Origin: Anaeroplasma bactoclasticum
GTDB lineage: Bacteria; Bacillota_I; Bacilli_A; ML615J-28; CAG-313
Length of the DNA stretch: 64,000 nt
Direction: 5' to 3'
Assembly (NCBI GenBank): GCA_023667245.1
Contig: JAMPAL010000001.1
Location: forward strand, 1,317-65,316
The translations under genes were made by a program, and so were the position numbers. The notes beneath the pieces were generated by a model. That model was not told where the DNA came from, did no database searches, and was given only the letters and a program-made list of their open reading frames with translations. Positions 32,904-59,300 of this stretch are shown here, piece by piece (positions within the stretch are counted from its first letter, which is position 1; every line of letters starts with the position of its first letter).

Positions 32904-33464
32904 CTAACTTAAAAAAAGTTGATTGAGTTTCTCGTTTAATTCTTCTTGTTGTGCTTTTGTCATTTCTGGTAATACACCATTTTCATTTTTAATATGACTA
33001 TCCACAGTATTGAGATGAAATGCTACTACACGTCCTTGAATAACCTTAATCAGTGTAGGTGCATTCACCCGATTTTTTTCAGAATCCAAAATCGTTTGAA
33101 GATGACTTGCTACCAATTTAGAAAAATGGGCATAATCTTTGTCATTTTCATCATCCCTCATCTGTTTGATATCCATATAATAAATGGTTTGAATATGGTG
33201 ATTTTTTGCTTCTGTATTGAGAACACCCATTAGGGCTTGACACCAAGGACAAGCAGGGAATCCCATAATCAGATAGAAATCTTCTTCTTGCTCAAAACGC
33301 TCTATGACTTCTTCTACTTGTATGGTTTCAAAAACATGATGTTTATCCGTAAGTCCCGGGTATTCTTCTTGCATATGGCGCTTGGACGGATTGCAACTCC
33401 CTAATACAAATAGTAAAGTTCCTATTAAGGCCAAGAATACAATTGTTTCAAATCCCTTATTCAT
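32904..33464 (-). CDS. thioredoxin-fold lipoprotein
   Basis: Lipobox LGS-C and the redox motif CPWC inside a thioredoxin-like context (IMGFPACPWCQAL). Confidence 0.7.
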   Translation of the reverse strand: MNKGFETIVFLALIGTLLFVLGSCNPSKRHMQEEYPGLTDKHHVFETIQVEEVIERFEQEEDFYLIMGFPACPWCQALMGVLNTEAKNHHIQTIYYMDIKQMRDDENDKDYAHFSKLVASHLQTILDSEKNRVNAPTLIKVIQGRVVAFHLNTVDSHIKNENGVLPEMTKAQQEELNEKLNQLFLS

Positions 33465-34863: not shown

Positions 34864-34891
34864 CAAAAAAGAATGTAGATAGCTACATTCT
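34864..34891 (-). terminator. intrinsic terminator after ispDF
   Basis: On the minus strand: GAATGTAG-CTAT-CTACATTC followed by TTTTTT. Confidence 0.75.
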
Positions 34892-34909: not shown

Positions 34910-36052
34910 TTAATTGCTTTTTCGAATCAAGACTACTGCCTCACTAGCGACACCTAATCCACTGCCAATTAACCCTTGTTTTTCCAAAGTAGTTGCCTTC
35001 ACATTTACATAAGCGGCATGCGTGAGCGCTTTGATATGATTGGCCATTAAAATTTTATGTTCTTTTAAATTGGGTTTTTCTAAATAAACGATAACATCTA
35101 AGTTTTCTACAACATAGCCTTCCATACGCACTTCTTTCATTACTTCTTCAATAAAATAACTAGAATCCATATTTAAAAAAGTATCATCTGTATCTGGAAA
35201 TAAAGTGCCTAAATCACCAAGTCCTAGAGCCCCCATAATGGACTCAGCTACAACGTGGTAGACAACATCCGCATCACTATGTCCTTTTAGTCCCCAAGGC
35301 GTGTCAAATTGTACACCACCTAGTATCAGTTTTCTTGTTTTATCAATCGGATGAAAATCAAAAGAATGCCCCACTTTATACTGATTGCGATGTGTCAAAT
35401 AATAAGTCACTAAATCCATATCTTCTATTGTGGTCACTTTTAGATTAGGTCTTGATTCTTCTACAAAAGCAACAGGTAGTTGTTGTTCAAATAGACGAAT
35501 TTCATCTGTAATTTCTACGGGTGAAATATCCGCATAAATGATATCAGAAAATAAATCACTTCGAAAAAATTGTGGTGTTGAAACTGCCTTTAGCGCTTCT
35601 CTTGCAATTGTTTTTACACCAATTGTGGTATCTTTTACTGTATCATATACTTTATGATATAACGTACCACATGCATATCGTTCCATTTGTTCCATCAAGT
35701 GATTGATATCTTCAACTTGAATCATCGGTCTTGCGGCATCATGAATCAAAACAAAATCAGCATCGACTTCTTGTAATGCCTTTTGTACACTTTCAAAACG
35801 AGTAGCCCCACCTTCTACAAATGTAACTTGCTCATCGTCATAGTTTTGATATACAATTGACTCAATTTCTTCTCTTATATCAGATGAAACGGGTATATAT
35901 ATATGTTGAATAGCAGGATGATTTATCAATACATCTAGACTATACATAAAAAGAGGTTTTTGATGTACTTGATACAGTAATTTATTTTCGCTATGGCAAA
36001 AACGTTCACTTTTTCCTGCCATCAACAAAATGGCACTAATGGTTGGATTCAT
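34910..36052 (-). CDS. ispDF: bifunctional MEP cytidylyltransferase / MEcPP synthase IspDF
   Basis: The N-terminal IspD part carries LLMAGKSERF. The C-terminal IspF part carries GHSFDFH and GHSDADVVYH. Confidence 0.95.
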   Translation of the reverse strand: MNPTISAILLMAGKSERFCHSENKLLYQVHQKPLFMYSLDVLINHPAIQHIYIPVSSDIREEIESIVYQNYDDEQVTFVEGGATRFESVQKALQEVDADFVLIHDAARPMIQVEDINHLMEQMERYACGTLYHKVYDTVKDTTIGVKTIAREALKAVSTPQFFRSDLFSDIIYADISPVEITDEIRLFEQQLPVAFVEESRPNLKVTTIEDMDLVTYYLTHRNQYKVGHSFDFHPIDKTRKLILGGVQFDTPWGLKGHSDADVVYHVVAESIMGALGLGDLGTLFPDTDDTFLNMDSSYFIEEVMKEVRMEGYVVENLDVIVYLEKPNLKEHKILMANHIKALTHAAYVNVKATTLEKQGLIGSGLGVASEAVVLIRKSN

Positions 36053-37256
36053 GTTGTTCTCCTAACACGACATTCAAAATAGACATCGTTTTTTCTAACT
36101 TTGATTGAATATTTCTAGAAGCAAGGGCTTGAATCTGATCTATGTTTTCTTCTTTATGAAGCGTCATTTTTCGTTTTTCTTGTGTATTTACTCCACCAAT
36201 ACGAATAATAGACAGTAAACCATAATCTTTTCGCATATAGATGGAATCTTCTTCTACTGTATAATACGTATCCGCAATCAATAAGCGGTATTTTAATTTC
36301 GTAATAGAAAGGCTATTGACTGTTTCAGCTTGTTCTAAATAAGCATTTACATCTTCTGGATGGATATGTGAAAAAATTTCTTCAAACACATATTCCTTTT
36401 TGTCCGTTTTGGTGTAAGTACGCATACAATCTGTTGCAACATATACTGCATTTTGATAATCATAATACAAGACAACTCCCTCAGACATACTCATCAACAT
36501 ATCCAATTGCAAATATGCATCTTCCAAATTGGTACATGCTGATTTAACTAGTCCTTTTAGTTTTTCTACTACATTCATATTATCACGATAAAAATAAACA
36601 TTTCTTGCGACAAGTGTATTTTTTCGATAAACTGGTTGAATGATGCCTTCATATCGAATACATTCTGTTTCTAACTGTTTATCTTGGACCATATTTTCTA
36701 CTTCCATACTGAAACGATACACATTGTGTTTACTATTGCACTCTTTGAATTCGGATAAGAATCCCGCAACATTATTGAGACTAAATTCTTGTTTATTGAG
36801 GGTTCGGATATTCAAATTATCAAAAATAAACTTCCAACCTCGATGATGTAGGATCTCTTTTTTGGATAATTTTGTCAGTTTTAAAATAGAACCACTGCAA
36901 TCAATGACACGATCTTTTGCATTCATCTGCACATAAAAATCATATTCGTTATTTTTAATATATTCTGTTGTTTTTTCATAAATGACCTTGTGGGTATATA
37001 ATAAAAGCGAAAAATCAAACAAACTATATAACAATACCAAACTATCTAACACCAAAACTAAGATAATCCAAACTCGAGTAAATGTAGGAATGAACATTCC
37101 CCCTAGTAATAGAAAAAAAGAAAGTACACCATCTATTACTTGCTTATTTTCTAACAAACAGACTTTCATGGTATCCAACACCAAAACAAATACCAAGATA
37201 ATGACCAAAAATAAAATTTGCGTTGGCTCAAAATGAGCAAATATAGCTAAGCTCAT
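36036..37256 (-). CDS. hypothetical membrane protein with two PAS-like cytoplasmic modules and no output domain
   Basis: 406 aa. There are 3 N-terminal TM helices and then two segments with PAS-like patterns (VIDCSGSILKLTKLSKKEILHHRGW...; VVLYYDYQNAVYVATDCMRTY...HIHPEDVNAYL...KYRLL). The gene is translationally coupled between cdaA and ispDF. Confidence 0.6.
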   Translation of the reverse strand: MSLAIFAHFEPTQILFLVIILVFVLVLDTMKVCLLENKQVIDGVLSFFLLLGGMFIPTFTRVWIILVLVLDSLVLLYSLFDFSLLLYTHKVIYEKTTEYIKNNEYDFYVQMNAKDRVIDCSGSILKLTKLSKKEILHHRGWKFIFDNLNIRTLNKQEFSLNNVAGFLSEFKECNSKHNVYRFSMEVENMVQDKQLETECIRYEGIIQPVYRKNTLVARNVYFYRDNMNVVEKLKGLVKSACTNLEDAYLQLDMLMSMSEGVVLYYDYQNAVYVATDCMRTYTKTDKKEYVFEEIFSHIHPEDVNAYLEQAETVNSLSITKLKYRLLIADTYYTVEEDSIYMRKDYGLLSIIRIGGVNTQEKRKMTLHKEENIDQIQALASRNIQSKLEKTMSILNVVLGEQHESNH

Positions 37257-37261
37257 ATCTG

Positions 37262-38050
37262 TTACTCCTTTACAATTAAGTGTTGTTCTAATAGTGTTCT
37301 TAATCCTTCTAATGATAATTTGCCTGTGATAGTACCACCGATTGTATTGGCTACTTGCCCAGTTTCTTCTGAAACAACAATAGTAAATGCATCACTTTGT
37401 TCACTAATACCTATTGCGGCACGATGCCTTGAACCATAATGCTGAGGTATATCTTTCTTTTGACTTGGTTGGAAAAATGCACTTGCACATTTAATTCTGT
37501 CTCCTCTAATGATTACAGCACCATCATGTAATGCGGTATTGGGGTGAAAAATGGACTCTAATAATTCAAATGTGATTTCCGCATCTAATTCGACTGCACC
37601 TTCAATCAAATTATTCAATGTATGCTCTTTTTCAATTGTAATAATGGCACCAATTCTTCTACTACTCAAATAATCCACTGACTTAATCAGCGTATCAATA
37701 ATCAGCGTCTTTGTATCTTCATTGGTTAAAAACTGCTTGGTTTCTTTTTTTTCTGTCTTTAAAGTCGCATGGGTTTTATACTCAGGTATGTAAAATACGA
37801 ACGTATAAATGGTAGTTAAAATAAACATTGCTGCACTAATATAATATCCTAGTTTCAATCCCATTACTAAACAAATGACAAATAAAACTAAAATTGCTAA
37901 ATAGATGACAATCATCGCTTTTGATTGAACATGTCGGCATAAAAAGTGAATCAATAATGCCAATCCAAAAACAAGTATGACCATTTCAATGGCGAAACTA
38001 ATATAGCCATAACCAAGCGATTCTATATATTTTTGTATAGTTTCAATCAT
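37262..38050 (-). CDS. cdaA: diadenylate cyclase CdaA (membrane-bound c-di-AMP synthase)
   Basis: 3 TM helices plus a DAC domain (DGAVIIRGDRI, GSRHRAAIGISEQSDAFTIVVSEETG). I chose the ATG at 38050, 1 nt after the ankyrin gene stop. The tracked ORF runs to 38131. Confidence 0.9.
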   Translation of the reverse strand: MIETIQKYIESLGYGYISFAIEMVILVFGLALLIHFLCRHVQSKAMIVIYLAILVLFVICLVMGLKLGYYISAAMFILTTIYTFVFYIPEYKTHATLKTEKKETKQFLTNEDTKTLIIDTLIKSVDYLSSRRIGAIITIEKEHTLNNLIEGAVELDAEITFELLESIFHPNTALHDGAVIIRGDRIKCASAFFQPSQKKDIPQHYGSRHRAAIGISEQSDAFTIVVSEETGQVANTIGGTITGKLSLEGLRTLLEQHLIVKE

Positions 38051-38051
38051 G

Positions 38052-38582
38052 TTATCGTTCTTCTCCTTTTTTCTTATAAATTGCTTTTTCCAAAAATGAA
38101 ACAATATTTTGATTTTTTTCATCTTTGGCATAATCCATTACGGATAAATTTTTTTCATCTACTAAAAGCACATCGGCTCCTAGTGCTATCAATGTTTTAA
38201 TCATTTTCTCATCCCCCAAAATAACGGCTCTGTGTAGCGGTGTTTGTTCAAACTCTCCAGGTATATCAATGTCTGCGCCAGAGTAAACCAAATATTTAAC
38301 TGCTTTTCGGTTATTTTTTTCCACAGCTAAATGCATAGGACTCACAAAATGGTCATCACACAAATTGGGATTGCTTCCCCTTTCTATTAAAAAGGGAAGC
38401 AATTTGGAATGGTTTTTTTCAATGATATAGTGAAGCAATGTTTTGCCTTGATCATACTTCATATTTAAATCTAGTTCTTTTTGTAGCATTTTTTTGACTT
38501 GCTTTTTATAATATCGCGTTGTTTTTTGTGTGTTTTTGATTTCCTGAATAAAAACAATCGCTTCCGTTTTACTTATGCTCAT
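38052..38582 (-). CDS. ankyrin-repeat protein
   Basis: 176 aa with at least 3 ANK repeats (GKTLLHYIIEKNHSKLLPFLIERGSNPN; VSPMHLAVEKNNRKAVKYLVYSGADID; QTPLHRAVILGDEKMIKTLIALGADV). Its ATG overlaps the giant gene's TGA (ATGA). Confidence 0.85.
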   Translation of the reverse strand: MSISKTEAIVFIQEIKNTQKTTRYYKKQVKKMLQKELDLNMKYDQGKTLLHYIIEKNHSKLLPFLIERGSNPNLCDDHFVSPMHLAVEKNNRKAVKYLVYSGADIDIPGEFEQTPLHRAVILGDEKMIKTLIALGADVLLVDEKNLSVMDYAKDEKNQNIVSFLEKAIYKKKGEER

Positions 38583-41500
38583 CCTTTTTTCTCCAATGCC
38601 AATTGTTGAATAATGTGGTTAACAACCTCATCATACTGTGTATATAAATCATGAATATACACGACTTCCACCTGCCAACCTCTTTTTTTATACTCTTGAT
38701 GATAATAAATATAATCATCTACAAATGTTGTAGTATAATCTTCGCTTTTACCCATAATCATAATTGCAAAAGGTTTCTTTCTTTTGATAATAATATCAAA
38801 TGAACCAAACCCACTCTCTGCCTTTACTTTTTTATCTCTTAAACTTTGAATCAATAATTGAGTAATTCCTTCTGGCTTTTTTTCTTGCATAACATTTTTT
38901 CCAATGGTCTGTTGAATTGACTTTAGAATCATCTCATTTTCACTTTCTAACCGATGTTTCAAATAAAATACTTGTACACTGTTGTATACCGCAATAAAAT
39001 TTTTAAACACCAACTCTTTTTCGGAAGCTTCTAAATCTCTAAAATCATCATAATAGATATATACATCATTGACATAGCGATTACCTTCAGTTAAAGCATT
39101 CAAAATACGAATGTGATAACATAAAATGTTACCTATTTCTTCTGGAGAATAGGCATTGACCAATCCTTTTACAATGCTCGTATACGCTTTTCTTCTAGTG
39201 GATTCATTGGCAACCAATACATTGATAATGTGAGATGGATTCATATAAAACCGATTTAAAATATGCTCAATAAATGCTTCAAAATGATCGACTTGAATAA
39301 TATCGCATTGATTATCATAGGCATAAATATATTGATTATTATAACTCCAAATATTGTTGAATTTGGAATTCATTTGGATATAACGCCTTTTATAATCTAC
39401 AGTACAAGCTTTTCCTAATCGTTGCATCAAAGCATTTGAAACAGAAGTTTGGAATAATTTATCACCAAAAATAATGACTTGCTTACACTCTTGAATCCGG
39501 TAATATTTATTGGAAGTAGATAAATGAGCATCATCTACAATGACCAAATCAAATACTGATATATCCAAATGACTATTGAGAATATCTAAATCAGATAAAA
39601 AGACAGGTACATTTTTGGATAAAGCATTTACAATATGGTTATAGTCATTAAAGGCATACCCATGATTCAAGTTTACTTTTTTCCGAATATCTTCTACTTT
39701 TTTCTTTAATTCAAACCCATTTTTTTGACAATACGCATATTCAAAATCTTGATAATCATTTAAATATTGCAATAAAGATTGGGATGACAAAAGTTCTGGA
39801 TATTGAGATTCAATAGTACGATAATAGTCAAGAAATACACTATACATAAAGCGTTTAGATATGCCTAGTCCATATTTACAACTTCGAATACCTTCATATA
39901 AATCATTTAAGTGATAATTCAAAAATCGTTCTGTTAATACATTAATAGTCAAGATTGCATCAATTTGATCTACCTTATTGAGATATGTCTTAAATATTTT
40001 GATATTGGCATCAAAACTATTGGATTGAAAATCATTTTGACTACCTTTAAAGCAAACAGAAAAGGCCCTAAAAGCACTAACCCACTGAGCGTACATCACA
40101 TCAATTGCTTTGATATCTTCTAAAAGATGATTGAAATGTTGATCTTCAAAAAGTGCATTAATATCACAATTAGGAGATATTTTTTTCAAAAAATCATCAT
40201 AATGTTCAATAGTTTGACCAATATCACTGATAATGGTATCTAAACCCCGATAATATTTGCCTAAATTTTGCTTATATCTTGGTGCATTGGTTTCTAAATC
40301 TTTTTGTAATTGTTGTTGCATTCTATCATTTTCAATTAGAGTAACAATATCATCATACGTTACTGTATCTTTTTGAACAAAAATGCCTTTGATTTCTTGC
40401 TTCAATTCAATTACTTCTTTTAAATACAATTGCCACAATTTAATTTTTTCAACTTTATCTAATATGCTTCCATCTACAATGTGTATATTGTAATTGCGAA
40501 GGCTCGTACAAATACTAGAAGTTTGATAGCCTTCTGATTTGATTTGTGTCAATAATTGATGAATCACTTGAATATAGTGGTCTTGATATCTACCTTTTTT
40601 ATATTCATGCAATAATTTTTTCCAAGCAGAAATAAATTGATGATCCAAAGTAGTTACAAACTGATTGAATTTCACAAACTGCTCTACTAGTTCAATATCT
40701 AGTTCTTTTTTACCAAATACCTCTTGAATTGCATCTTGTAAAATTTCCATAGTGTGATAATATTTTTTTACATGTTCGACAATGAATTTTACATCTTGCT
40801 TTTCTTTTTTCGCAATTTTACGATTGATGTAATGCATAACAAAGCGATCTTGATTTTTTTTGTGCAATTCAACATCTAAAAAGCCCTTCGTTAATTGTTC
40901 AAAATGTGTAATAAAGCGAGGAAGGAAAATCACTTCTTCTAAATACAATAAATACGCATCCGTAATCGTCTTTTCATATTTACTAAAAATCATAGGTTGT
41001 TCTAAATAACAATCGATTACAAGTGGATTCAATAGATGTTGATTTAAAAATTGATCCAATTGTGTAAAAAAGCTATAACATGTATCTGTGATTTCTTTTA
41101 GACCAAATATGTTTTTCAATTTACTTACTAGTTCAGTTGTTTGATTGACGTTTTGTTCCATATCTTTGGTTAACAACACCAATTTTTCATCAAACTGAAT
41201 CAATCGATTAATAAAAATTGCATCTGTTGTTTCCCAGTTTTCTTCTACATTTAAATGGTCAGCAAGAATCACCTTTAAAATTTTTTCCATTCGTCCAGGA
41301 ATATAATTGTCAATAGTAGTCGCCTCATAATATTTAGATAAATTATATTTGATATCTACTAAGCCCTGAATTTCACGAAGGGATTTAAGTGTTTCCCGTC
41401 TAGTTTTTTCATCTATCCATTCCGGAAGTGGTCGAACAGAGGCAAAGTGATACACATGAGAAATGGTTTTATATAACTCATGAATGGTACTAGCAGGTTT

Positions 41501-42940
41501 GATTCCATATTTAGCCATCGTTTTCTTTTCTTTTTGATATAATTCAATATTGATTTCTTGTAATTCCTCTAAGCGCTGAATAATGCTTTCTTTAGTAATA
41601 TTATTTCGATAAATTTGTAGACGATGCCATACATTTGTTGCGTAAGTATCTATCATCTTTAAAGCATCTTCTATTTCAAGTAAATCATGATAAATCCGTT
41701 GCACTTCATGTTTTTCTAGTGTGATTTCTAATTGAATCGGTTCTATAGAAGGGTTTTCTTTTTTCAAGATAGCCAATTCTTCAAAAATATGGTGAATGGT
41801 ATAGCCATGTATTTTGGTCTGAAAATGATTGAGATGGTTGAACAATTGCGCAAGAATATCCAAAGAAAGATCTGACTTTCCTTTGTTTTCAATATCCACC
41901 TCTGGTCTTTCAATTCTTCGCAAGTTTCTGGTTAAGTTATAGGATAATCCGTCAAATCCCAAATAAGAAATACTTTTTTCTAAGTCGAATAAATTATCTA
42001 AATCCTGATTGATATATAAAACTTTTTTCCCTTTGAGCACTTGGTCAGAAAGAATATTTAAAATGGTATGTGTTTTCCCACTACCAATTCTACCATCAAT
42101 GGCAAATTTTTCTCCCTTATCCACCTTCAATAAAACGTATTTTTGATCTAAGTTGGTAGGTAGTATGCCTTTAATGTTTGTAAAATAGTGATTGACAATC
42201 TTTTCTTCAGTTGTCTCAAAGATAGACCGCTCAGTTGTCATAAAATCCTGACCAATTAAAATATCGCCATATTCTACGTTTCCAATTGTCAAATAGTTAG
42301 TAGGATTGACTGTTGTATGCAGTACTTCTCCCAAATCCAAACAAAGTTTGTCAATATCTTGTACAGAATAAATCTTCCGTGATACATATTCATCGTAGAA
42401 TCGTTTTTGATAATCGGTTTCGTTACCACCAATAATTTTATATTTTGATTTTCGTAAATAATCAATTGGATTGGTCTTGTCTTTTTCTATATCTCGAAAA
42501 TACAATACAGCCAATTCTTTTATAATTTTCGTATTAATCATCGGCGTACTACTGGCCACGATCTCAAAGCTTTGATAATCAAAGTCAAAAGGGATGAGAA
42601 CAAGAGGAGCATATTTTTCACAAGATGATTGATCATAATATTTGATTACACCAGCAGTTAACAAAAATTTATAAGACGAATTTTTCAGCCGCAAATTAAT
42701 CAAATAGTTCAGTTGGTAATAGTAATCAAACAAAATATCTCCCGTAATCATACCGCTACCCTCACTAAGGATTTCAAAGTTCATCAACTCTTGTAGATTT
42801 ACTTTCTCCCCCTTGATGATTTTATTCATCATCTTCATATCTATGGCACCTAGTTCGATATAATAATCATCTTCTAAAATATTAATCAAATGCATATTAC
42901 TTGAACGAATATAGTATGTATTGTCATTTTTGATTTTCAT
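38579..42940 (-). CDS. 1453-aa P-loop protein, a divergent or degenerate DUF4011/Upf1-like SF1 helicase relative with a C-terminal restriction-endonuclease-like module
   Basis: Uninterrupted ORF with its own extended -10 promoter and RBS GAGGTAG. The single Walker A GRIGSGKT is encoded at 42071..42094. DLVIVDDAH (39524..39550) and VIIFGDKLFQ sit where motif II and motif III would be. The C-terminal string is FDIIIKRKKPFAIMIMGKSEDY...RGWQVEVVYIHDLY. Confidence 0.8.
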   Translation of the reverse strand: MKIKNDNTYYIRSSNMHLINILEDDYYIELGAIDMKMMNKIIKGEKVNLQELMNFEILSEGSGMITGDILFDYYYQLNYLINLRLKNSSYKFLLTAGVIKYYDQSSCEKYAPLVLIPFDFDYQSFEIVASSTPMINTKIIKELAVLYFRDIEKDKTNPIDYLRKSKYKIIGGNETDYQKRFYDEYVSRKIYSVQDIDKLCLDLGEVLHTTVNPTNYLTIGNVEYGDILIGQDFMTTERSIFETTEEKIVNHYFTNIKGILPTNLDQKYVLLKVDKGEKFAIDGRIGSGKTHTILNILSDQVLKGKKVLYINQDLDNLFDLEKSISYLGFDGLSYNLTRNLRRIERPEVDIENKGKSDLSLDILAQLFNHLNHFQTKIHGYTIHHIFEELAILKKENPSIEPIQLEITLEKHEVQRIYHDLLEIEDALKMIDTYATNVWHRLQIYRNNITKESIIQRLEELQEINIELYQKEKKTMAKYGIKPASTIHELYKTISHVYHFASVRPLPEWIDEKTRRETLKSLREIQGLVDIKYNLSKYYEATTIDNYIPGRMEKILKVILADHLNVEENWETTDAIFINRLIQFDEKLVLLTKDMEQNVNQTTELVSKLKNIFGLKEITDTCYSFFTQLDQFLNQHLLNPLVIDCYLEQPMIFSKYEKTITDAYLLYLEEVIFLPRFITHFEQLTKGFLDVELHKKNQDRFVMHYINRKIAKKEKQDVKFIVEHVKKYYHTMEILQDAIQEVFGKKELDIELVEQFVKFNQFVTTLDHQFISAWKKLLHEYKKGRYQDHYIQVIHQLLTQIKSEGYQTSSICTSLRNYNIHIVDGSILDKVEKIKLWQLYLKEVIELKQEIKGIFVQKDTVTYDDIVTLIENDRMQQQLQKDLETNAPRYKQNLGKYYRGLDTIISDIGQTIEHYDDFLKKISPNCDINALFEDQHFNHLLEDIKAIDVMYAQWVSAFRAFSVCFKGSQNDFQSNSFDANIKIFKTYLNKVDQIDAILTINVLTERFLNYHLNDLYEGIRSCKYGLGISKRFMYSVFLDYYRTIESQYPELLSSQSLLQYLNDYQDFEYAYCQKNGFELKKKVEDIRKKVNLNHGYAFNDYNHIVNALSKNVPVFLSDLDILNSHLDISVFDLVIVDDAHLSTSNKYYRIQECKQVIIFGDKLFQTSVSNALMQRLGKACTVDYKRRYIQMNSKFNNIWSYNNQYIYAYDNQCDIIQVDHFEAFIEHILNRFYMNPSHIINVLVANESTRRKAYTSIVKGLVNAYSPEEIGNILCYHIRILNALTEGNRYVNDVYIYYDDFRDLEASEKELVFKNFIAVYNSVQVFYLKHRLESENEMILKSIQQTIGKNVMQEKKPEGITQLLIQSLRDKKVKAESGFGSFDIIIKRKKPFAIMIMGKSEDYTTTFVDDYIYYHQEYKKRGWQVEVVYIHDLYTQYDEVVNHIIQQLALEKKG

Positions 42941-43025
42941 ATTTTCTACCTCACTGGCAATTGTGTATAATCTGCCACTTTATTATCTATTATATCACTT
43001 TTATTTATTTTATCAAAGGAAAATG

Positions 43026-43055
43026 GAAAAAAAGTAACTATTCGTCTAGTTACTT
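43026..43055 (-). terminator. intrinsic terminator after the ClpC-like gene
   Basis: On the minus strand: AAGTAACT-loop-AGTTACTT followed by TTTTTT. It overlaps the stop codon. Confidence 0.7.
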
Positions 43056-44997
43056 ATCTTGTTTTATTTGTTGTTTCTAATTGGTTAGTTTGTGGATTAT
43101 AATAATACTTCCCTTTTTCTAGCAATAAACTCTCGCAAAAGACCTCTTCTTTTTTACGTTCTGGAATATCTTGTAGGTTTACAATTTGAATAGATTGTTT
43201 TTGAAACAATTGATCATATTGATTTTGATGATATCTAGTGGGTAAAGTTTTTAGACAGGGAAAGCGTAATTGGGGTTGATTTTGGACTGAATGAATAAAT
43301 CCTGTTTGATGATGATGATTTTGTTTTCCACCAATAGCAAAAATAGCATTGGTTAAATAAATTGTTCTTCCTTTATTATCCAAGAATGTTTCTTTTTGAA
43401 ACAATTGATATAAAAATTGTTGAATAGAAATATGGGCTTGCTCAAAATGCCTAAAATAAACAAATGCCATAGGATACCGAATCAAATGTTCTGATAACAG
43501 CCCACCTTGTTCATATCCCACATACCCCTTTACTGAACCAATTAAGTTATTGATCATAATGGGATCTTGATATGTTTCTAAGTCTACTTCTAGATACATT
43601 TCTTTTTTAAAATGAAATAATTTCATTAAATCTACCATTAAATCTTGGGATACGAAATCATGTTCTACTTCTACTACCGCAATATTGTTTTGTTTTAATT
43701 TCCATTTTCCTTTTTCAATAAACCCCACATAATTTTTTTTCAATTCTGGATAATTTAACTTTGCTTTTTTTAATTCGGTTAATGTCAAATGATGAATAGA
43801 AGTCATATCTTCAATGGTATCATCAATTAAAGATTGGATACTTTTATCACTTGATTTTTTCCTAGCTCCAACCTCATCCATCACATCAATTGCTTTATCT
43901 GGAAAATTGCGATTAACCAAATAACTTTTACTTTTTTGAATGATGGTTTGAATATCTTTATTTGTATATTTTACATGATGATAATTTTCATAACTTATCT
44001 TAATTTCTTTTAAAATATGATACGTTTCTTCTTCTGTAGGTTCATCAATAAACACATTTTGAAATCGTCTAGAAAGGGCTTTGTCTTTATCAATATAATG
44101 ATAATACTCATCTAATGTTGTAGCTCCTATCAATTTCATATCTGAACGCGACAAATAGGGTTTTAAAATGTTGGCTATATCAAGCGATCCATCATTAGAA
44201 CCCGCTCCTACAATATTGTGAATTTCATCAATAAATAAAATTGCCTTTTTCTTTTTGATATACTCCATTGCTTTGGTTAATTTTTCTTCCAATTCACCAC
44301 GATATTTGGTTCCAGAAACAATGCCACCTAAATCCAATTGATAAATATCCGTTTGTAAAATTTCTGATAAGCCTTCTACAATAGCTGTTTTTCCTACACC
44401 TGCATTTCCTATCAGTAACGGATTATTTTTTTGTTTTTTGGATAAAATAAATTGTATCTTTTCTACATAATTGCTTCTTGACACAAAGGGATGAATTTTG
44501 GTAGTGGAAGAAAGATGAATCAAAAATGGATAAGGTGTAGCCTCTTTTGTGAATCCTTTTTGTTCAAAAAATCCAAAAATCTCCTCTATGCTTTCTGCCA
44601 GTTCATCTAAAACTAAGCCTAGCTTTTCTAACACGATACAGGCAACTGAATCATACTCTTTGAGCATCACATAGAAAATATGTTCATCATATACATAATC
44701 ACTATTTAAATCCGTTGCCAAATTTTCTGAAAACAAAATGATTTCTTGAAATTTTTTTGTATATGTTATATCTTGATGGTCCGTTTTTCTCAAAATGACT
44801 AATTTCTCAACTGCATGTAATAAATCCTCATATTGAATATTTTTTTCCTCTAATAAAAAGTGACAAATGCTGTCTTTTGTTTGATACATGGCGAGTAGAA
44901 GGTGTTCACTGCCAACCCATTTTTTGCCTAAAAGTTTCGCTATCTTTAATGCCTCATCAATCATTTGAATTGCATTTGTACTAAAAGCCTCAAACAT
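43054..44997 (-). CDS. ClpC-derived AAA+ protein with an intact D1 module and a degenerate D2 module
   Basis: It has two Clp_N repeats. D1 has Walker A GNAGVGKT (44386..44409), Walker B ILFIDEIH and SRRFQ. The D2-homologous region (LIGSVKGYVGYEQGGLLSE...FRHFEQAH...NKGRTIYLTNAIFAIGG) lacks both Walker A and the Walker B acidic pair. I chose the ATG at 44997, 5 nt after AAGGAGG. Confidence 0.85.
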   Translation of the reverse strand: MFEAFSTNAIQMIDEALKIAKLLGKKWVGSEHLLLAMYQTKDSICHFLLEEKNIQYEDLLHAVEKLVILRKTDHQDITYTKKFQEIILFSENLATDLNSDYVYDEHIFYVMLKEYDSVACIVLEKLGLVLDELAESIEEIFGFFEQKGFTKEATPYPFLIHLSSTTKIHPFVSRSNYVEKIQFILSKKQKNNPLLIGNAGVGKTAIVEGLSEILQTDIYQLDLGGIVSGTKYRGELEEKLTKAMEYIKKKKAILFIDEIHNIVGAGSNDGSLDIANILKPYLSRSDMKLIGATTLDEYYHYIDKDKALSRRFQNVFIDEPTEEETYHILKEIKISYENYHHVKYTNKDIQTIIQKSKSYLVNRNFPDKAIDVMDEVGARKKSSDKSIQSLIDDTIEDMTSIHHLTLTELKKAKLNYPELKKNYVGFIEKGKWKLKQNNIAVVEVEHDFVSQDLMVDLMKLFHFKKEMYLEVDLETYQDPIMINNLIGSVKGYVGYEQGGLLSEHLIRYPMAFVYFRHFEQAHISIQQFLYQLFQKETFLDNKGRTIYLTNAIFAIGGKQNHHHQTGFIHSVQNQPQLRFPCLKTLPTRYHQNQYDQLFQKQSIQIVNLQDIPERKKEEVFCESLLLEKGKYYYNPQTNQLETTNKTR

Positions 44998-45131
44998 GAA
45001 TTCCTCCTTAACTTTTGCTTGCATTTTATTATATGCAAGGCAACATCAAGATAGACTTTTTTTAGTTTTGCTACCTAATTTACTTTTAAACAAGATTATG
45101 GTACAATGATAATTAGAAAAGAGGTGATGAT

Positions 45132-46418
45132 ATGAATGAACCCATTGAAACAACAAAAGCCATATTGGTCGGTATTCCACTTGGAACTGATGAAGACTTT
45201 GACTATCAAATGCATGAACTTGCGGGATTATGCGAGGCAAGAAATATTGAAATAGTCGATACGATTACTCAAAATTTAGATCATCCTATCAGTAAAACCT
45301 ATGTAGGTAGTGGTAAATTATTAGAAATTAAACAACAAATTGATATATTACATGCAAATTTAGTTGTCTTTCTAGATGAGTTATCTCCAATTCAACTCAA
45401 AAACATTGAGTCTATTCTAGATTGTGAAGTAATTGACCGTACAATGCTTATTTTAGAGATTTTTGAATTGCGTGCAAGAACAAAAGAAGCTATATTACAA
45501 GTAGAAATCGCCAATTTAAAATATATGCTTCCTAGACTAATTGGTTCCTATACTCACTTATCTAGAACTGGTGGTGGTGGCACAGGGGGTTCTGGAGCAA
45601 GGCGAGGTAGTGGAGAAACCAAACTAGAAGAAGACAAAAGGCACATTGAAAGAAGGATTCAAAAAGCGACTGAGGAATTAAAAAGTATTGTCCAAAGTAG
45701 ACAAACAGCAAGAAAATTGAGAAAATCAAGTGATACCAAAACAGTTGCTTTTGTCGGCTATACGAACGCAGGAAAATCAACTACGATTAATAGCTTATTA
45801 GAATTGTTTCACCGTGATGATGAAAAAAAAGTTTTTGCCAAAAATATGTTGTTTGCTACCCTTGAAACCGCAACAAGACTCATCAAACTCCCTACCAATC
45901 AAGAGTTTCTAATTACCGATACGGTTGGTTTTGTCAGTCACCTTCCTCATCATTTGATTGAATCGTTTAAATCCACTTTAGAAGAAATTAAAGAAGCCCA
46001 TTTGATTGTCCATGTAGTAGATGCCGCAAGTCCTTATGCTTCTATGCAAATCGAAACAACCAACCAGGTGTTAACGGAGATCGGAGTAAAAGATATTCCT
46101 ATTGTATACGCCTTTTGTAAAGCTGACCTTGTTAAAAACACCCTCTTTTTACCTCAAGTGGATACAGATTTTATTTTAATTTCCAACACAAAGCATACTG
46201 GTTTTGATCAACTGATTTGCTATATTCAAAATACTTTATTTTCAGATCAAGTTACTTGCAAACTACTGATTCCCTATGCAAATGGAGAAATCTTTTCTAT
46301 TCTAAAAGAAAAGGCCCATGTACATGATTCTTCTTATGAAAATGAAGGTATTCTTTTAACTTGCACGATGAGTAAACACTTATATCAACTTTATATGCAA
46401 TATGAATTATCTCAATAA
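45132..46418 (+). CDS. hflX: GTPase HflX
   Basis: HflX N-domain, glycine-rich linker, G1 GYTNAGKST and G3 DTVGF. Confidence 0.95.
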   Translation: MNEPIETTKAILVGIPLGTDEDFDYQMHELAGLCEARNIEIVDTITQNLDHPISKTYVGSGKLLEIKQQIDILHANLVVFLDELSPIQLKNIESILDCEVIDRTMLILEIFELRARTKEAILQVEIANLKYMLPRLIGSYTHLSRTGGGGTGGSGARRGSGETKLEEDKRHIERRIQKATEELKSIVQSRQTARKLRKSSDTKTVAFVGYTNAGKSTTINSLLELFHRDDEKKVFAKNMLFATLETATRLIKLPTNQEFLITDTVGFVSHLPHHLIESFKSTLEEIKEAHLIVHVVDAASPYASMQIETTNQVLTEIGVKDIPIVYAFCKADLVKNTLFLPQVDTDFILISNTKHTGFDQLICYIQNTLFSDQVTCKLLIPYANGEIFSILKEKAHVHDSSYENEGILLTCTMSKHLYQLYMQYELSQ

Positions 46419-47584: not shown

Positions 47585-48553
47585 TTATGCTTCGTGCAAT
47601 ATTACTTGACATATTTTTTCTAATTCTTGATAAGATTTGACACTGACAATACTACTTTTATATGCCTTTGTGCCTGGAATTAATTTTAAGTACCACCCCG
47701 CATGACTACGCATCTCAATCATTGCAATATGCTCCCCCTTTTCAAGAATGAGTCTTCTAGCGTGGTCTAATAGTGTGGCAATGACAACTTGCCGAGTGGG
47801 TTTTTCAACAATGACTTGATGTTCCATATAGGAAGCCATTTGGTCAAAGATAAATGGATTCCCAAGGGCAGCACGGCCAATCATCACCCCATCTACACCC
47901 GTTTCTAACATGCTCTGAAGTGTGGAAATATCCTTTACATCACCATTTCCAATGACAGGAATGGATGTTGCTTCCCTGACTTGCCGAATATAATCTAAAT
48001 TGACTTCTCCTGTATACAAACTAGATCTTGTTCTACCATGAATGGCAATGGCATCTACTCCAGCTTTTGTTGCAAGTTTTGCCACTTCCCCACAACAAAT
48101 GGAATGCGCATCCCAACCTGCTCTGATTTTAATTGTTACTGGAATATCCATATTTTCCTTTAGACTTTTAATGATGTCGTATATTTTTTGAGGCGTTTTC
48201 AGTAATGCACTACCTGCTCCACTTTTCACAACTTTATTGACTGGACACCCCATATTGACATCCAATATATCAATGGGTGAGCGAGTAATCATTTGTTTTG
48301 CGGAATCAGTAATCGACTGATAGTCGGAACCAAAAATTTGCATAGAAACAGGATGTTCACAAGGTGCTATTTGAATCATTTGCAAGGTTTTTGTATTTTC
48401 ATAAGCTAACCCTTTGTCGCTAATCATTTCCGTACAGACCAATCCCGCTTGATGCTCTAAACAAATTTGTCTATATGTAGAATTGGTAACACCTGCCATA
48501 GGTGCCAAAATGATGTTATTCTTTAGTTTGACATTGCCAATTTGTAGACTCAT
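47585..48553 (-). CDS. dusB: tRNA-dihydrouridine synthase
   Basis: LAPMAGVTN and DVNMGCP motifs. I chose the ATG at 48553 (GAGGT 9 nt upstream). The tracked GTG is at 48577. Confidence 0.9.
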   Translation of the reverse strand: MSLQIGNVKLKNNIILAPMAGVTNSTYRQICLEHQAGLVCTEMISDKGLAYENTKTLQMIQIAPCEHPVSMQIFGSDYQSITDSAKQMITRSPIDILDVNMGCPVNKVVKSGAGSALLKTPQKIYDIIKSLKENMDIPVTIKIRAGWDAHSICCGEVAKLATKAGVDAIAIHGRTRSSLYTGEVNLDYIRQVREATSIPVIGNGDVKDISTLQSMLETGVDGVMIGRAALGNPFIFDQMASYMEHQVIVEKPTRQVVIATLLDHARRLILEKGEHIAMIEMRSHAGWYLKLIPGTKAYKSSIVSVKSYQELEKICQVILHEA

Positions 48554-48725
48554 GATTGTATTACCTCGTATTGCCACTATTTATCTATCATTTTCATATA
48601 AAATACTCTTTCATTATAACACAAATCAAGAAAATTGCAAATCTTGAAGCATTCAAAATGGTGATGATTGCTAATGGTTTGCATTTTTTTCATTTTATGA
48701 TATAATACATTCAAGAGGTGGCGTT

Positions 48726-58259: not shown

Positions 58260-59300
58260 TTATTTTCCTCGACTTTCTTTTAAAAATTCTTCTATTTCTG
58301 CTAACTTTGCAAAAAAGCGTTGTTCATCCTTAATTTCTGGCAACATAAAAATATGCATTTCCGATACGCTAGACATCTCATTTGATACGATTAAAATGGA
58401 TTTTGCTTCTTCTGGTGTGACAAACATTTGTATAGGAAGTGTGATTAAAGCCAAAATCTTGCCATGCTGTTTTACATATTGATGAAATACATCACTTTTT
58501 TCTTGTGAAAAAAATGAATTATTGATAAGATAAAAACCAATTCGTGAAGAAGTGGTGAGAAAAAAGTGCTCAATTAACAAATATGGAAAATACCGAATAC
58601 CTTGATTATATAGCTCAGAATGATAATTTTGATTCTCATAGGTATAATTGGCAATATCTGATACGATAGCATCTACCCCATCAACAGGAAACTCAAGTGC
58701 ATCTTGATAATACATATCCAGTTCTTCCATCATCATATTTGCTTTATGCGCTGCCACTTGTGCCAGTAAAGAATGATTATCCATCCCAATCATTTGAATA
58801 TCCACTTGTGTATGATTTTGAATAGAAAACATCAAATTTCCTGTACCAAAATTATTGTCTAATACAACAATATGCTTTTGTTCTCTAAAATAAGCATCGA
58901 TACACTTTGCAAAAATTATACCAATAGCATCTGGTGTAATCAAATCAAGGGGAAAATTAATATTTTTAAATGCCTTGATATCTAATAAAAGTAGCGCTCT
59001 ACGCATTTCTTCACTATTGACAGAATGCACTTCTATCATTTGTTGGAATATATTGAGCTTTTCATCAATTTGCTTTTTGACCTCTTCTGATACATATAAT
59101 GCTTTATTTTCTAAAAAATAATCAATTATCGCAAATAGACTTTCATAAAAATGAGTGGTTGGACGTTCTTTGTTATAATTGGTTACATCGGTATTTTCGG
59201 TTTCTTCATCTATGCTACCATAATAATGAAGCATAGTAGCCTCATCTAAGATATCTACAATTTGATTGATGATATGTTCATTTTCTCTTTTATTTTCCAC
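58260..59300 (-). CDS. class I SAM-dependent methyltransferase (YtxK-like, N6-adenine MTase fold)
   Basis: Motif I-like VVLDNNFGTGNL. I chose the GTG at 59300, 9 nt after GAGGAGG. The tracked TTG start at 59318 contains that RBS. Confidence 0.65.
   Translation of the reverse strand: MENKRENEHIINQIVDILDEATMLHYYGSIDEETENTDVTNYNKERPTTHFYESLFAIIDYFLENKALYVSEEVKKQIDEKLNIFQQMIEVHSVNSEEMRRALLLLDIKAFKNINFPLDLITPDAIGIIFAKCIDAYFREQKHIVVLDNNFGTGNLMFSIQNHTQVDIQMIGMDNHSLLAQVAAHKANMMMEELDMYYQDALEFPVDGVDAIVSDIANYTYENQNYHSELYNQGIRYFPYLLIEHFFLTTSSRIGFYLINNSFFSQEKSDVFHQYVKQHGKILALITLPIQMFVTPEEAKSILIVSNEMSSVSEMHIFMLPEIKDEQRFFAKLAEIEEFLKESRGK

What the first reader, a model, noticed from the sequence alone, without database searches (positions are those of the whole stretch)
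34910..44997. Conserved clpC-radA-disA-yacL-ispDF neighbourhood rewired into a new operon
In B. subtilis and many Firmicutes the order is clpC-radA-disA-yacL-ispD-ispF. The same frame is recognisable here, with a ClpC-like gene at one end and ispDF at the other, but every internal slot is replaced:
- radA is replaced by the 1453-aa P-loop giant.
- An ankyrin-repeat protein has been added.
- The cyclase DisA is replaced by the membrane cyclase CdaA.
- YacL is replaced by a tandem-PAS-like membrane protein.

The five downstream genes are translationally coupled. The junctions are an ATGA overlap at 38579-38582, a 1-nt gap at 38051, a 5-nt gap at 37257-37261 and a 17-nt overlap at 36036-36052. 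The unit is bounded by a terminator at 43026-43055 and another at 34864-34891. That points to a functional unit linking c-di-AMP synthesis to uncharacterised partners.
Basis: partly seen in the sequence, partly recalled or inferred. Interest (0 to 1): 0.7.

Follow-up and report, generated by a model that had tools for sequence, protein, structure and literature searches.

The report
Conserved helicase-ankyrin-CdaA-PAS-IspDF operon
In a whole group of uncultured gut and digester Bacilli, the enzyme that makes the signal molecule c-di-AMP sits in a tightly packed, conserved operon with a giant helicase-like ATPase, an ankyrin protein and a membrane PAS sensor; these are probably new regulators of c-di-AMP, but none has been tested.

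Summary
All ORFs, the four tight junctions and the two hairpin+T-run terminators lie at the stated coordinates.

The unit is not peculiar to this genome. Giant–Ank–CdaA–PAS protein–IspDF has the same order and strand in about 100 related loci, including 36 GTDB species. Giant identity falls to 22% across them.

Across the clade, an extended −10 promoter precedes the giant in 31 of 34 loci and is essentially absent inside the unit. Terminator-like hairpins follow only the ClpC-like gene and IspDF.

- **The giant** is a Upf1-like SF1 helicase-fold ATPase. It has a weak DUF4011 N-terminus, a ~750-aa helical insert and a C-terminal domain read from sequence motifs as a decayed Vsr/DUF559-like nuclease domain.
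- **The 406-aa protein** is 3TM–PAS–PAS. It is a shortened relative of TM–PAS–PAS–degenerate-GGDEF proteins.
- **The ClpC-like gene** has a dead second ATPase ring and is a separately transcribed neighbour.
- **Ank** is absent in two species.

The "slot-by-slot replacement of radA/disA/yacL" remains an inference. Dus, ClpC-like and IspDF anchor the frame, but whether radA, disA or cdaR exist elsewhere could not be tested.

Best reading: a vertically inherited housekeeping operon whose lineage-specific proteins regulate CdaA. It is a new variant of a known kind, of moderate to high interest.

The parts
42989..43016 (-). Promoter-like site of the operon: TTGATA-16 nt (with TG)-TATAAT
   Evidence: It scores 11/12 with an extended −10 and is the best site in the region. 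TGnTATAAT lies within 100 nt upstream of the giant in 31/34 distinct related loci. It occurs in 1.2% of random windows and in 0-1/38 loci upstream of the four internal genes.
38579..42940 (-). Giant, 1453 aa: Upf1-like SF1 helicase-fold ATPase, first gene of the operon
   Evidence: The family has 72 clusters of about 1415-1494 aa. A profile matches IGHMBP2 motifs I and II. The AF2 model has pLDDT 86. Foldseek top hits are Sen1, HelD, SETX, Aquarius and IGHMBP2, with UPF1 lower in the list. PADLOC PDC-S37 hits at E 1.4e-19.
42182..42940 (-). Giant residues 1-253: N-terminal region with weak DUF4011 similarity
   Evidence: PF13195 matches 19/34 family members, best E 2.6e-6. The window protein itself scores only E 0.18.
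42071..42094 (-). Giant Walker A (GRIGSGKT, residues 283-290)
   Evidence: G288 and K289 are invariant, T290 is kept in 32/34, and the upstream Q266 is invariant.
39647..41884 (-). Giant: roughly 750-aa all-helical insertion inside RecA-like domain 1 (about residues 353-1098)
   Evidence: DSSP of the model is all-helical here. Part of the insert (703-1081) aligns with PDC-S37.
39524..39547 (-). Giant Walker B / motif II (LVIVDDAH, residues 1132-1139)
   Evidence: D1136 and D1137 are invariant and H1139 is kept in 31/34. The stretch aligns to IGHMBP2 motif II.
38582..38866 (-). Giant C-terminal α/β domain, read from sequence motifs as Vsr/DUF559/MTES_1575-like; catalytic site not conserved
   Evidence: The motif is FD…(I)xEG…DDY…EYxKRGW. 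The acidic residue of 'xEG' is E in only 11/34 members and is M1396 here. PF18741 matches weakly in 3/34. The domain's fold was not compared on its own.
38052..38582 (-). Ankyrin-repeat protein, 176 aa; its start overlaps the giant's stop (ATGA)
   Evidence: Ank_2/Ank_4/Ank hits have E about 1e-20. It is present in nearly all loci but absent in L027 and L033.
37262..38050 (-). CdaA-type membrane diadenylate cyclase, 262 aa from M28 (DAC domain about 37334-37684)
   Evidence: PF02457 hits at E 9e-39. TIGR00159 CdaA scores 172.8 bits (cutoff 188.8), while DisA scores 33 bits. DGA and RHR motifs are present. AAAGGAG lies upstream of the ATG at 38050. Homologues are 258-276 aa.
36036..37256 (-). 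406-aa membrane sensor: 3 TM helices (about 36993-37226), PAS1 (36585-36938), PAS2 (36195-36470), C-terminal helices
   Evidence: The AF2 model has pLDDT 67. Foldseek finds tandem-PAS proteins: LOV-PAS-HK at E 9e-12, then DosP, FixL and HIF-ARNT. hhalign gives 99.5% probability to TM-PAS-PAS-degenerate-GGDEF relatives.
34910..36052 (-). Fused IspD-IspF (MEP pathway), last gene; its start overlaps the PAS gene by 17 nt
   Evidence: IspD hits at 6.6e-41 and YgbB at 1e-46. The estimated 17-nt overlap recurs in 27/43 loci.
34864..34891 (-). Intrinsic-terminator-like hairpin plus T-run that closes the operon
   Evidence: Sequence read. A similar element lies downstream of IspDF in 11/37 loci, against 1.2% of random windows.
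43026..43055 (-). Terminator-like hairpin plus T-run after the ClpC-like gene (upstream boundary)
   Evidence: Sequence read. A similar element follows the ClpC-like gene in 11/31 loci.
43054..45024 (-). ClpC-like AAA+ protein (656 aa) with degenerate D2: a conserved neighbour, not part of the operon
   Evidence: The N-domain and D1 align to B. subtilis ClpC (E 1.8e-86). D2 has only a partial match. In the family, the region aligned to D2 shows no conserved Walker A, and the Walker B acidic pair is replaced (window FVYFRHFEQAH, consensus LIYFKNFDKAH).
45132..46418 (+). hflX, divergent from the ClpC-like gene; the two form a conserved pair that moves or inverts together
   Evidence: TIGR03156 scores 399.6 bits.
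47585..48577 (-). Dus (tRNA dihydrouridine synthase): upstream anchor of the B. subtilis-like frame
   Evidence: PF01207 hits at 1.5e-83. It is syntenic in most loci.

Best explanation
This is an old, vertically inherited housekeeping operon of an uncultured Bacilli clade. Its members are MAGs labelled Bacilli, Mollicutes, Acholeplasmatales or 'Staphylococcus sp. CAG:324', plus environmental relatives.

**Shown**
- One promoter in front of the giant drives five translationally coupled genes: giant SF1-fold ATPase, ankyrin protein, CdaA, 3TM-PAS-PAS protein and IspDF.

**Inferred**
- CdaA makes c-di-AMP at the membrane.
- The 3TM-PAS-PAS protein takes the place that CdaR has in other Firmicutes. 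It would be a membrane partner that binds a cytoplasmic ligand in PAS2 and modulates CdaA.
- The giant, tethered through the ankyrin adaptor, feeds an ATP-dependent signal into the cyclase, possibly one linked to nucleic acids. This is functionally analogous to RadA acting on DisA.
- The giant's nuclease-like domain and helicase motif VI are decayed, so it is more likely a switch or scanner than a processive helicase-nuclease.
- IspDF is a passenger kept from the ancestral neighbourhood. If the MEP pathway is required here, which was not tested, its coupling would imply that the operon is expressed constitutively.
For: **Conservation**
- Giant-Ank-CdaA-PAS protein-IspDF is contiguous and co-oriented in every sufficiently long locus. 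That covers 36 GTDB species and 61 metagenome loci.
- Distant relatives (giant 22-28% identical) keep giant-Ank-CdaA even where other genes are inserted after CdaA.

**Coupling and boundaries**
- Estimated median junctions are −1, 7, 12 and −17 nt inside the unit. The ClpC-like→giant spacer is 128 nt at the median and up to 8.7 kb.
- The extended −10 element lies upstream of the giant only: 31/34 loci, against 0-1/38 for the internal genes.
- Terminator-like hairpins lie only at the two ends.

**Vertical inheritance**
- Giant identity tracks that of Dus, ClpC-like, IspDF and TsaE (rho 0.81-0.88).
- No relatives were found in viral contigs or plasmids.

**Parts**
- The ATP-binding residues of the giant are invariant.
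- The DAC catalytic motifs DGA and RHR are present.
- The PAS protein's residues conserved across the family cluster in PAS2.
- Both partner families appear confined to this clade. The exhaustive search found only 71 representatives of the PAS protein among 1.84 billion, and the word-based search found 72 giant clusters.

**Precedents**
- RadA and DisA share a conserved operon, and CdaR is encoded with CdaA (PMC5575661).
Against: - No direct evidence shows that any partner touches CdaA. Co-transcription alone does not prove interaction.
- Ank is absent in two species, and IspDF in the same operon has no obvious link to signalling. Operon membership here is therefore not a reliable guide to function.
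- The giant lacks the motif VI arginine, so even its ATPase activity is uncertain.
- It is unknown whether cdaR, glmM, disA or radA exist elsewhere in these genomes.
- The model of the PAS protein has only moderate confidence (pLDDT 67).
Confidence: 0.45

Rival explanations
1. This is co-transcription without functional coupling. The five genes would be a compact housekeeping operon kept together by genome streamlining and inherited as a block. The giant, Ank and the PAS protein would act in unrelated processes.
For: - IspDF, an isoprenoid enzyme, is translationally coupled to the PAS gene although no functional link is apparent.
- Unrelated genes (an MGS-like protein and 5-FTHF cyclo-ligase) sit inside the operon in distant relatives.
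- The whole region (Dus … tsaE) is syntenic across the clade, so linkage alone is weak evidence.
Against: - Giant-Ank-CdaA stays contiguous down to 22% identity, while genes on either side come and go.
- The giant and PAS families were found only at this locus. Every locus examined has them next to CdaA.
Confidence: 0.3
2. This is strict non-orthologous displacement of the RadA-DisA-YacL module. The giant would have taken over RadA's DNA-repair or branch-migration role, and CdaA would have taken over DisA's role. The unit would then be a DNA-integrity checkpoint in the ancestral position.
For: - The position lies between a ClpC-derived gene and IspD/F, with Dus upstream, as in B. subtilis (PMC6755099 for radA-disA-yacL).
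- The giant has a helicase fold.
- No radA and no second DAC lie in the window or in 1.75 Mb of related flanks.
Against: - CdaA here is a membrane cyclase with no DNA-binding domain.
- The giant shares nothing detectable with RadA.
- Its nuclease site and motif VI are decayed.
- Absence of radA and disA from the genomes was not shown.
Confidence: 0.13
3. The giant, with or without Ank, is a domesticated anti-phage-type DUF4011 helicase-nuclease (Hhe / PDC-S37-like). It merely sits upstream of cdaA.
For: - PADLOC PDC-S37 hits at E 1.4e-19.
- There are weak NCBIfam hits to ProA (3e-15) and Hhe (1.7e-5).
- Ank hits PDC-M72A through its repeats.
Against: - All scores are far below family cut-offs (54.7 vs 1500 bits; 22 vs 2000 bits).
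- The gene is core, single-copy at a fixed locus, vertically inherited and flanked by housekeeping genes.
- No relatives were found on phages or plasmids.
- The nuclease site is not conserved.
- The essential-type genes cdaA and ispDF depend on its promoter.
Confidence: 0.07

Closest known systems
cdaA-cdaR-glmM operon of Firmicutes (membrane diadenylate cyclase with its regulators)
   Same: The cyclase is CdaA-type, with an N-terminal TM region and a DAC domain carrying DGA and RHR motifs. It is immediately followed by, and translationally coupled to, a membrane protein that could regulate it.
   Different: - The downstream protein has cytoplasmic tandem PAS domains, not extracytoplasmic YbbR domains.
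- There is no glmM.
- The upstream partners (giant ATPase, ankyrin) have no counterpart.
- IspDF closes the operon.
clpC-radA-disA-yacL-ispD-ispF neighbourhood of B. subtilis (RadA-DisA checkpoint module)
   Same: - The flanking anchors match: Dus upstream, a ClpC-derived gene, and IspD/F at the distal end.
- An NTPase gene is followed by a DAC-domain gene and then a membrane protein.
   Different: - None of the three internal proteins is homologous to RadA, DisA or YacL.
- The ClpC-like gene has a dead D2 ring and is separately transcribed.
- The cyclase is membrane-bound and lacks DisA's DNA-binding domain.
DUF4011 / Upf1-like SF1 helicase-nuclease giants (Hhe, PADLOC candidate PDC-S37)
   Same: - A weak DUF4011 N-terminus.
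- A Upf1-like RecA1/RecA2 core with a long insertion.
- A C-terminal domain whose sequence motifs resemble the Vsr/DUF559/MTES_1575 type.
- A similar overall size (about 1450 aa).
   Different: - Scores lie far below family cut-offs.
- The motif VI arginine and the nuclease acidic residue are not conserved.
- It is a core chromosomal gene in a fixed housekeeping operon rather than in a defence island.
GdpP (c-di-AMP phosphodiesterase) N-terminal sensor module: TM-PAS-degenerate GGDEF
   Same: The longer relatives of the 406-aa protein are TM-PAS-PAS-degenerate-GGDEF. This is the same kind of sensor architecture, attached to c-di-AMP metabolism. The comparison with GdpP rests on my knowledge of its architecture.
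   Different: - There is no DHH/DHHA1 catalytic part.
- There are two PAS domains.
- The window protein has lost the GGDEF domain altogether.
- Homology to GdpP was not demonstrated: the PDB sequence search found nothing.

Membership tests
CdaA (TIGR00159) diadenylate cyclase | DAC domain with catalytic DGA and RHR motifs | tested here: met
   PF02457 hits at E 8.9e-39. 'HDGAVII' and 'GSRHRAAIG' are read in the translation.
CdaA (TIGR00159) diadenylate cyclase | Whole-protein score above the NCBIfam equivalog cut-off | tested here: not met
   The score is 172.8 bits against a cut-off of 188.8. It is still the best model, ahead of CdaS (130), CdaM (123) and DisA (33). The protein is a divergent CdaA-type.
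CdaA (TIGR00159) diadenylate cyclase | N-terminal transmembrane helices before the DAC domain | tested here: inconclusive
   Hydrophobic stretches (ISFAIEMVILVFGLALLIHFL, MIVIYLAILVLFVICLVMGL, YYISAAMFILTTIYTFVF) are visible. No topology predictor was run.
cdaA-cdaR-glmM operon | YbbR-domain CdaR encoded directly downstream of cdaA | tested here: not met
   The downstream protein has no Pfam or NCBIfam hit. It folds as 3TM + PAS + PAS.
cdaA-cdaR-glmM operon | glmM in the operon | tested here: not met
   The next gene is IspDF, followed by a terminator.
clpC-radA-disA-yacL-ispDF neighbourhood | ClpC with two functional AAA+ rings | tested here: not met
   The D1 motifs are intact. The region aligned to D2 shows no conserved Walker A, and the Walker B acidic pair is replaced, across the 30 family members aligned.
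clpC-radA-disA-yacL-ispDF neighbourhood | radA and disA between clpC and ispD | tested here: not met
   There is no RadA hit at E ≤ 1e-3 in the window or in 111 related loci. The only DAC is the CdaA-type.
clpC-radA-disA-yacL-ispDF neighbourhood | ispD and ispF at the distal end, Dus upstream of clpC | tested here: met
   IspDF lies at 34910-36052 and Dus at 47585-48577. ispD and ispF are separate genes in the distant loci L084 and L103.
clpC-radA-disA-yacL-ispDF neighbourhood | radA, disA and canonical clpC absent from the rest of the genome (true displacement) | not testable with these tools
   Only the 64-kb window and ±10 kb flanks of related loci can be read.
Upf1-like SF1B helicases | Two RecA-like domains with motifs I and II | tested here: met
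   A profile matches IGHMBP2 motifs I and II. Foldseek finds Sen1, SETX, Aquarius and IGHMBP2 at the top and UPF1 lower down. Q266, G288, K289, D1136 and D1137 are invariant.
Upf1-like SF1B helicases | Motif VI arginine needed for coupled ATP hydrolysis | tested here: not met
   The region 'ELIFKNFxxVxNxV' keeps N1314 but has no conserved Arg at the TRA(R) position. The motif alignment was made by eye.
Hhe / DUF4011 helicase-nuclease anti-phage proteins | Family HMM above cut-off | tested here: not met
   Hhe scores 22.4 bits against 2000, and ProA 54.7 against 1500. PDC-S37 hits at E 1.4e-19 but only partially.
Hhe / DUF4011 helicase-nuclease anti-phage proteins | Conserved nuclease catalytic residues | tested here: not met
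   The acidic residue of the xEG motif is E in 11/34 members and is M in the window protein.
Hhe / DUF4011 helicase-nuclease anti-phage proteins | Variable, mobile or defence-island context | tested here: not met
   The locus is a fixed housekeeping one. Divergence is congruent with the neighbours. No viral or plasmid relatives were found.
PAS domain proteins | PAS fold (five-stranded sheet with flanking helices), here in tandem | tested here: met
   Foldseek finds tandem-PAS structures at E 9e-12 to 1e-6. Pfam PAS_9, PAS_3 and PAS hit the distant homologues. The window protein itself has no Pfam PAS hit.

The most novel reading that the evidence does not exclude
The clade has rebuilt a RadA-DisA-like checkpoint from non-homologous parts at the same chromosomal position. 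A giant SF1-fold ATPase would survey nucleic acids, or another ATP-dependent state. Through an ankyrin adaptor and a membrane PAS sensor it would gate c-di-AMP synthesis by CdaA. This would be a previously unknown class of CdaA regulators in very prevalent gut bacteria.
Probability: 0.15. Interest if true: 0.8.

Novelty: new variant of a known kind. Interest (0 to 1): 0.6.

Why it matters
c-di-AMP is an essential, tightly controlled messenger in Firmicutes. CdaR and GlmM are, to my knowledge, the established protein regulators of its main synthase CdaA.

Here a whole clade has CdaA locked into an operon with three uncharacterised proteins. One species of the clade has its CdaA indexed in over 5000 blocks of the assembly collection. 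The giant and the PAS protein were found only next to CdaA.

If these proteins regulate CdaA, they define new inputs into c-di-AMP signalling: a helicase-fold ATPase and a cytoplasmic PAS ligand sensor. They would also be a natural example of a signalling module rebuilt from non-homologous parts.

The work also assigns a fold and an ancestry to two 'hypothetical protein' families.

Tried and rejected
- **Redox or metal sensing by four cysteines in the PAS protein.** These are conserved only among close homologues. Across 38 orthologues each is Cys in only 10-11. Rejected.
- **Riboswitch or other RNA element in the leader.** There are no Rfam hits anywhere in the window, and the inferred leader is only about 45 nt.
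- **Mobile or viral origin of the giant.** Nothing was found in IMG/VR or in plasmids by tblastn.
- **Outgroup CdaA contexts.** The best 120 CdaA homologues listed had 42% identity or more to the query. The three whose context I looked up all carried the same operon. No outgroup was reached.
- **Sequence-level link of the PAS protein to any solved structure, including GdpP.** None was found at E ≤ 10 apart from noise.
- **radA or disA nearby.** None. No radA, disA, cdaR or glmM appeared among 46 of the 56 window ORFs scanned.
- **Canonical ClpC elsewhere in the window.** The 703-aa Clp ATPase at 440-2551 is an N-domain-less ClpB, not ClpC.
- **Literature.** No paper in the library combines CdaA and ankyrin. 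None mentions PDC-S37.
- **Exact GTDB placement of the clade.** Not resolved.

Full report
**1.

- IspDF, 34910-36052
- a 406-aa protein, 36036-37256
- a DAC protein, 37262-38131
- an ankyrin protein, 38052-38582
- a 1453-aa protein ("the giant"), 38579-42940
- a ClpC-like protein, 43054-45024

Pfam and NCBIfam confirm IspD+IspF, a CdaA-type DAC, ankyrin repeats and a Clp/Hsp100 protein. For the DAC, TIGR00159 scores 172.8 bits and the DisA model 33 bits. Neither library recognises the giant or the 406-aa protein.

The junctions were read directly from the sequence:
- ATGA overlap between the giant and Ank
- TAAcATG between Ank and CdaA
- a 5-nt gap between CdaA and the 406-aa gene
- a 17-nt overlap between the 406-aa gene and IspDF

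Each junction has a GGAG-type ribosome-binding site. CdaA most likely starts at M28 of the long ORF (coordinate 38050). That start has the RBS, and it gives 262 aa, in line with homologues of 258-276 aa.

Both proposed terminators are genuine hairpin+T-run elements. The generic scanner did not list either one.

Between the ClpC-like terminator and the giant lies the best promoter-like site of the region, TTGATA-16(TG)-TATAAT, at 43016-42989.

**2. The arrangement is conserved across a clade**

The giant has 72 full-length homologue clusters, from 98% down to 23% identity. Loci came from three sources:
- context look-ups
- a scan of GTDB species genomes, which gave 36 species
- a metagenome scan, which gave 61 loci

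A tblastn table over these loci shows giant-Ank-CdaA-PAS protein-IspDF contiguous and co-oriented in every locus long enough to tell. The record titles are MAGs named Bacilli, Mollicutes, Acholeplasmatales, Staphylococcaceae or "Staphylococcus sp. CAG:324". This is an uncultured gut Bacilli group near the RFN20, RF39 and ML615J-28 orders discussed in PMC10868615. I could not fix the exact order.

There are two exceptions and some variation:
- L027 and L033 lack Ank.
- Distant environmental relatives (giant 22-28% identical) still have giant-Ank-CdaA. They carry an MGS-like gene after CdaA and a longer PAS protein. A 5-formyl-THF cyclo-ligase is identified in L097, and an ORF of similar size holds the same slot in L103. 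IspDF follows in L097; separate IspD and IspF follow in L084 and L103.

Giant identity correlates with that of flanking housekeeping genes (rho 0.81-0.88 for Dus, ClpC-like, IspDF and TsaE). No relatives exist in viral contigs or plasmids. The unit is therefore vertically inherited, not mobile.

**3. Operon boundaries across the clade**

Estimated median intergenic distances:

| Junction | Median distance |
|---|---|
| giant→Ank | −1 nt |
| Ank→CdaA | 7 nt |
| CdaA→PAS protein | 12 nt |
| PAS protein→IspDF | −17 nt (exactly −17 in 27/43 loci) |
| ClpC-like→giant | 128 nt (range 54 nt to 8.7 kb) |

An extended −10 element (TGnTATAAT) lies within 100 nt upstream of the giant in 31/34 distinct loci. 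It occurs in 1.2% of random windows and in 0-1/38 loci upstream of each internal gene.

Hairpin+T-run elements occur downstream of the ClpC-like gene (11/31) and IspDF (11/37). They occur in 0-1 loci downstream of the four internal genes.

The five genes are therefore one transcription unit by sequence criteria. The ClpC-like gene, with its divergent hflX partner, is a separate neighbour. That pair is inverted in some loci and was not detected within 10 kb in two.

**4. The giant**

- A family profile matches motifs I and II of IGHMBP2, a Upf1-like SF1B helicase.
- Individual members hit DEAD (34/34), ResIII (27), AAA_11 (24), DUF4011 (19) and, weakly, MTES_1575 (3).
- An AlphaFold model of residues 254-1453 is confident (pLDDT 86). 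Foldseek returns Sen1, HelD, SETX, Aquarius and IGHMBP2 at the top and UPF1 lower down.
- The RecA-like domain 1 is split by a roughly 750-aa all-helical insertion. Part of that insertion aligns with the PADLOC defence candidate PDC-S37 (E 1.4e-19).
- Q266, Walker A and the Walker B acidic pair are invariant. The motif VI arginine is missing family-wide.
- The C-terminal domain, read from its sequence motifs as Vsr/DUF559-like, has lost its acidic residue in most members, including this one.

It is thus a divergent, probably nuclease-dead relative of the DUF4011 helicase-nuclease giants. It is not a member of Hhe or ProA, because its scores lie far below their cut-offs.

**5. The 406-aa protein**

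- The model shows three N-terminal TM helices, two PAS-like domains and C-terminal helices. Foldseek finds tandem-PAS sensors (E 9e-12).
- An exhaustive HMMER search of 1.84 billion representatives finds only 71 relatives. These are the ~400-aa orthologues plus a ~520-aa subgroup.
- All ten members of that subgroup that I scanned carry a C-terminal GGDEF domain above Pfam's threshold, but with a degenerate signature motif.
- hhalign links the two groups over TM+PAS+PAS (probability 99.5%, E 2e-22).
- The window protein is therefore a shortened TM-PAS-PAS remnant of a TM-PAS-PAS-degenerate-GGDEF sensor. This architecture recalls the sensor half of the c-di-AMP phosphodiesterase GdpP, but homology to GdpP was not shown.
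- Residues conserved across 38 orthologues cluster in PAS2, which suggests a ligand pocket.

**6. The ClpC-like protein**

Its N-domain and D1 ring align with B. subtilis ClpC. In the region aligned to D2, no Walker A is conserved and the Walker B acidic pair is replaced across the 30 family members aligned. The GYVGYEQGG motif and a conserved x-G-F/L tripeptide remain.

**7. The 'rewired frame' idea**

Dus … ClpC-like … IspD/F match the relative order of B. subtilis dusB … clpC-radA-disA-yacL-ispD-ispF. That order is from my knowledge; radA-disA-yacL is also stated in PMC6755099, and the conserved radA-disA operon in PMC5575661. The locus is plausibly orthologous.

None of the internal proteins is homologous to RadA, DisA or YacL. 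The events that produced the present order cannot be reconstructed from these data.

No radA and no second DAC occur in the window or in 1.75 Mb of related flanks. The rest of the genomes could not be searched.

**8. Mechanism**

*Shown:*
- a conserved, compact unit with a single promoter-like site, tight junctions and terminator-like elements only at its ends
- a DAC domain with its catalytic motifs
- an SF1-fold protein with invariant ATP-binding residues
- a membrane tandem-PAS protein

*Inferred:*
- The PAS protein plays a CdaR-like role as a membrane partner of CdaA, but senses a cytoplasmic ligand.
- The giant, through the ankyrin adaptor, supplies an ATP-dependent and possibly nucleic-acid-linked input, analogous to RadA on DisA.
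- IspDF is an ancestral passenger. If the MEP pathway is required here, its coupling implies constitutive expression.

I give this reading 0.45. The main rival, co-transcription without functional coupling, gets 0.3. Strict RadA/DisA displacement gets 0.13, and a domesticated defence gene 0.07.

**9. Novelty**

No paper in the library links CdaA with ankyrin proteins, and the sources annotate the giants as hypothetical proteins. The parts belong to known folds, and c-di-AMP cyclase operons with regulators are known. This is therefore a new variant of a known kind: a clade-wide alternative CdaA operon with unrecognised partner families, in bacteria that are very prevalent in gut metagenomes.

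Noticed in passing
window 440-2551 (−): A 703-aa Clp/Hsp100 ATPase with both AAA+ rings intact but no N-domain. It matches ClpB residues 151-848 (TIGR03346, 1105 bits, just below the 1232 cut-off).
   Followed up: partly
window 43054-45024 (−) and orthologues in about 30 loci: The ClpC-like family keeps an intact D1 ring. In the region aligned to D2, no Walker A is conserved and the Walker B acidic pair is replaced in the aligned members. It retains GYVGYEQGG and a conserved x-G-F/L tripeptide, which by eye sits where the ClpP-docking loop would be. It forms a divergent pair with hflX that moves or inverts as a unit.
   Followed up: partly
L027 about 14302-14311; L033 about 14488-14491: In two GTDB species the ankyrin gene is missing and CdaA directly follows the giant. 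Ank is therefore not obligatory for the unit.
   Followed up: partly
L084 13892-16740; L097 13633-17177; L103 13643-17214: Distant environmental relatives insert an MGS-like domain protein (117-121 aa) after CdaA. L097 has a 5-formyltetrahydrofolate cyclo-ligase before IspDF, and L103 has an unscanned ORF of similar size in the same slot. In L084 and L103, IspD and IspF are separate genes, whereas the gut clade has the fusion.
   Followed up: partly
P0162-P0183; L007 13845-15440: The ~520-aa relatives of the 406-aa protein carry a GGDEF domain whose GG[DE]EF signature is degenerate in all ten examined (for example SGSEF, DGLIF, KGASF). The architecture is reminiscent of the sensor half of GdpP.
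   Followed up: yes
L009 (JAMPDF010000003.1): The closest GTDB genome (giant 94% identical, identical gene order) is titled 'MAG: Prevotella sp.'. Its gene content here is that of the Bacilli clade, so the record is probably mislabelled or a mis-binned contig.
   Followed up: no
L048-L050 (CdaA P0185): The CdaA of one related species (62% identical) is indexed in 5061 blocks of the assembly collection, with contigs over 1 Mb. It is a very prevalent gut organism that carries the same operon.
   Followed up: partly
window 38001-44000: G+C dips to 29.6-29.8% over the giant gene, against 32-35% in most of the window. The giant and the PAS protein are also the fastest-evolving genes of the region (median 31% and 34% identity, against 50-69% for the ClpC-like protein, TsaE, HflX, Dus and S1).
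   Followed up: partly
window 49974-53267 (−): A 1097-aa protein has only a weak Flg_new_2 (InlB B-repeat) match. Large Flg_new / glycosyl-hydrolase-18 proteins also recur near the locus in relatives (L002, L006, L048).
   Followed up: no
window 8203-9093, 9158-10051, 58260-59318, 32904-33464 (all −): Four ORFs of 186-352 aa have no Pfam match. The 186-aa one (between S1 and the amidase) is syntenic across the clade and shows a weak PedC-like hit in relatives.
   Followed up: no
window 13007-14383 (−) with 14380-14922 (−): An RsgI-like anti-sigma factor central domain protein overlaps the end of an upstream 180-aa ORF that was not scanned. This may be a sigma/anti-sigma pair.
   Followed up: no
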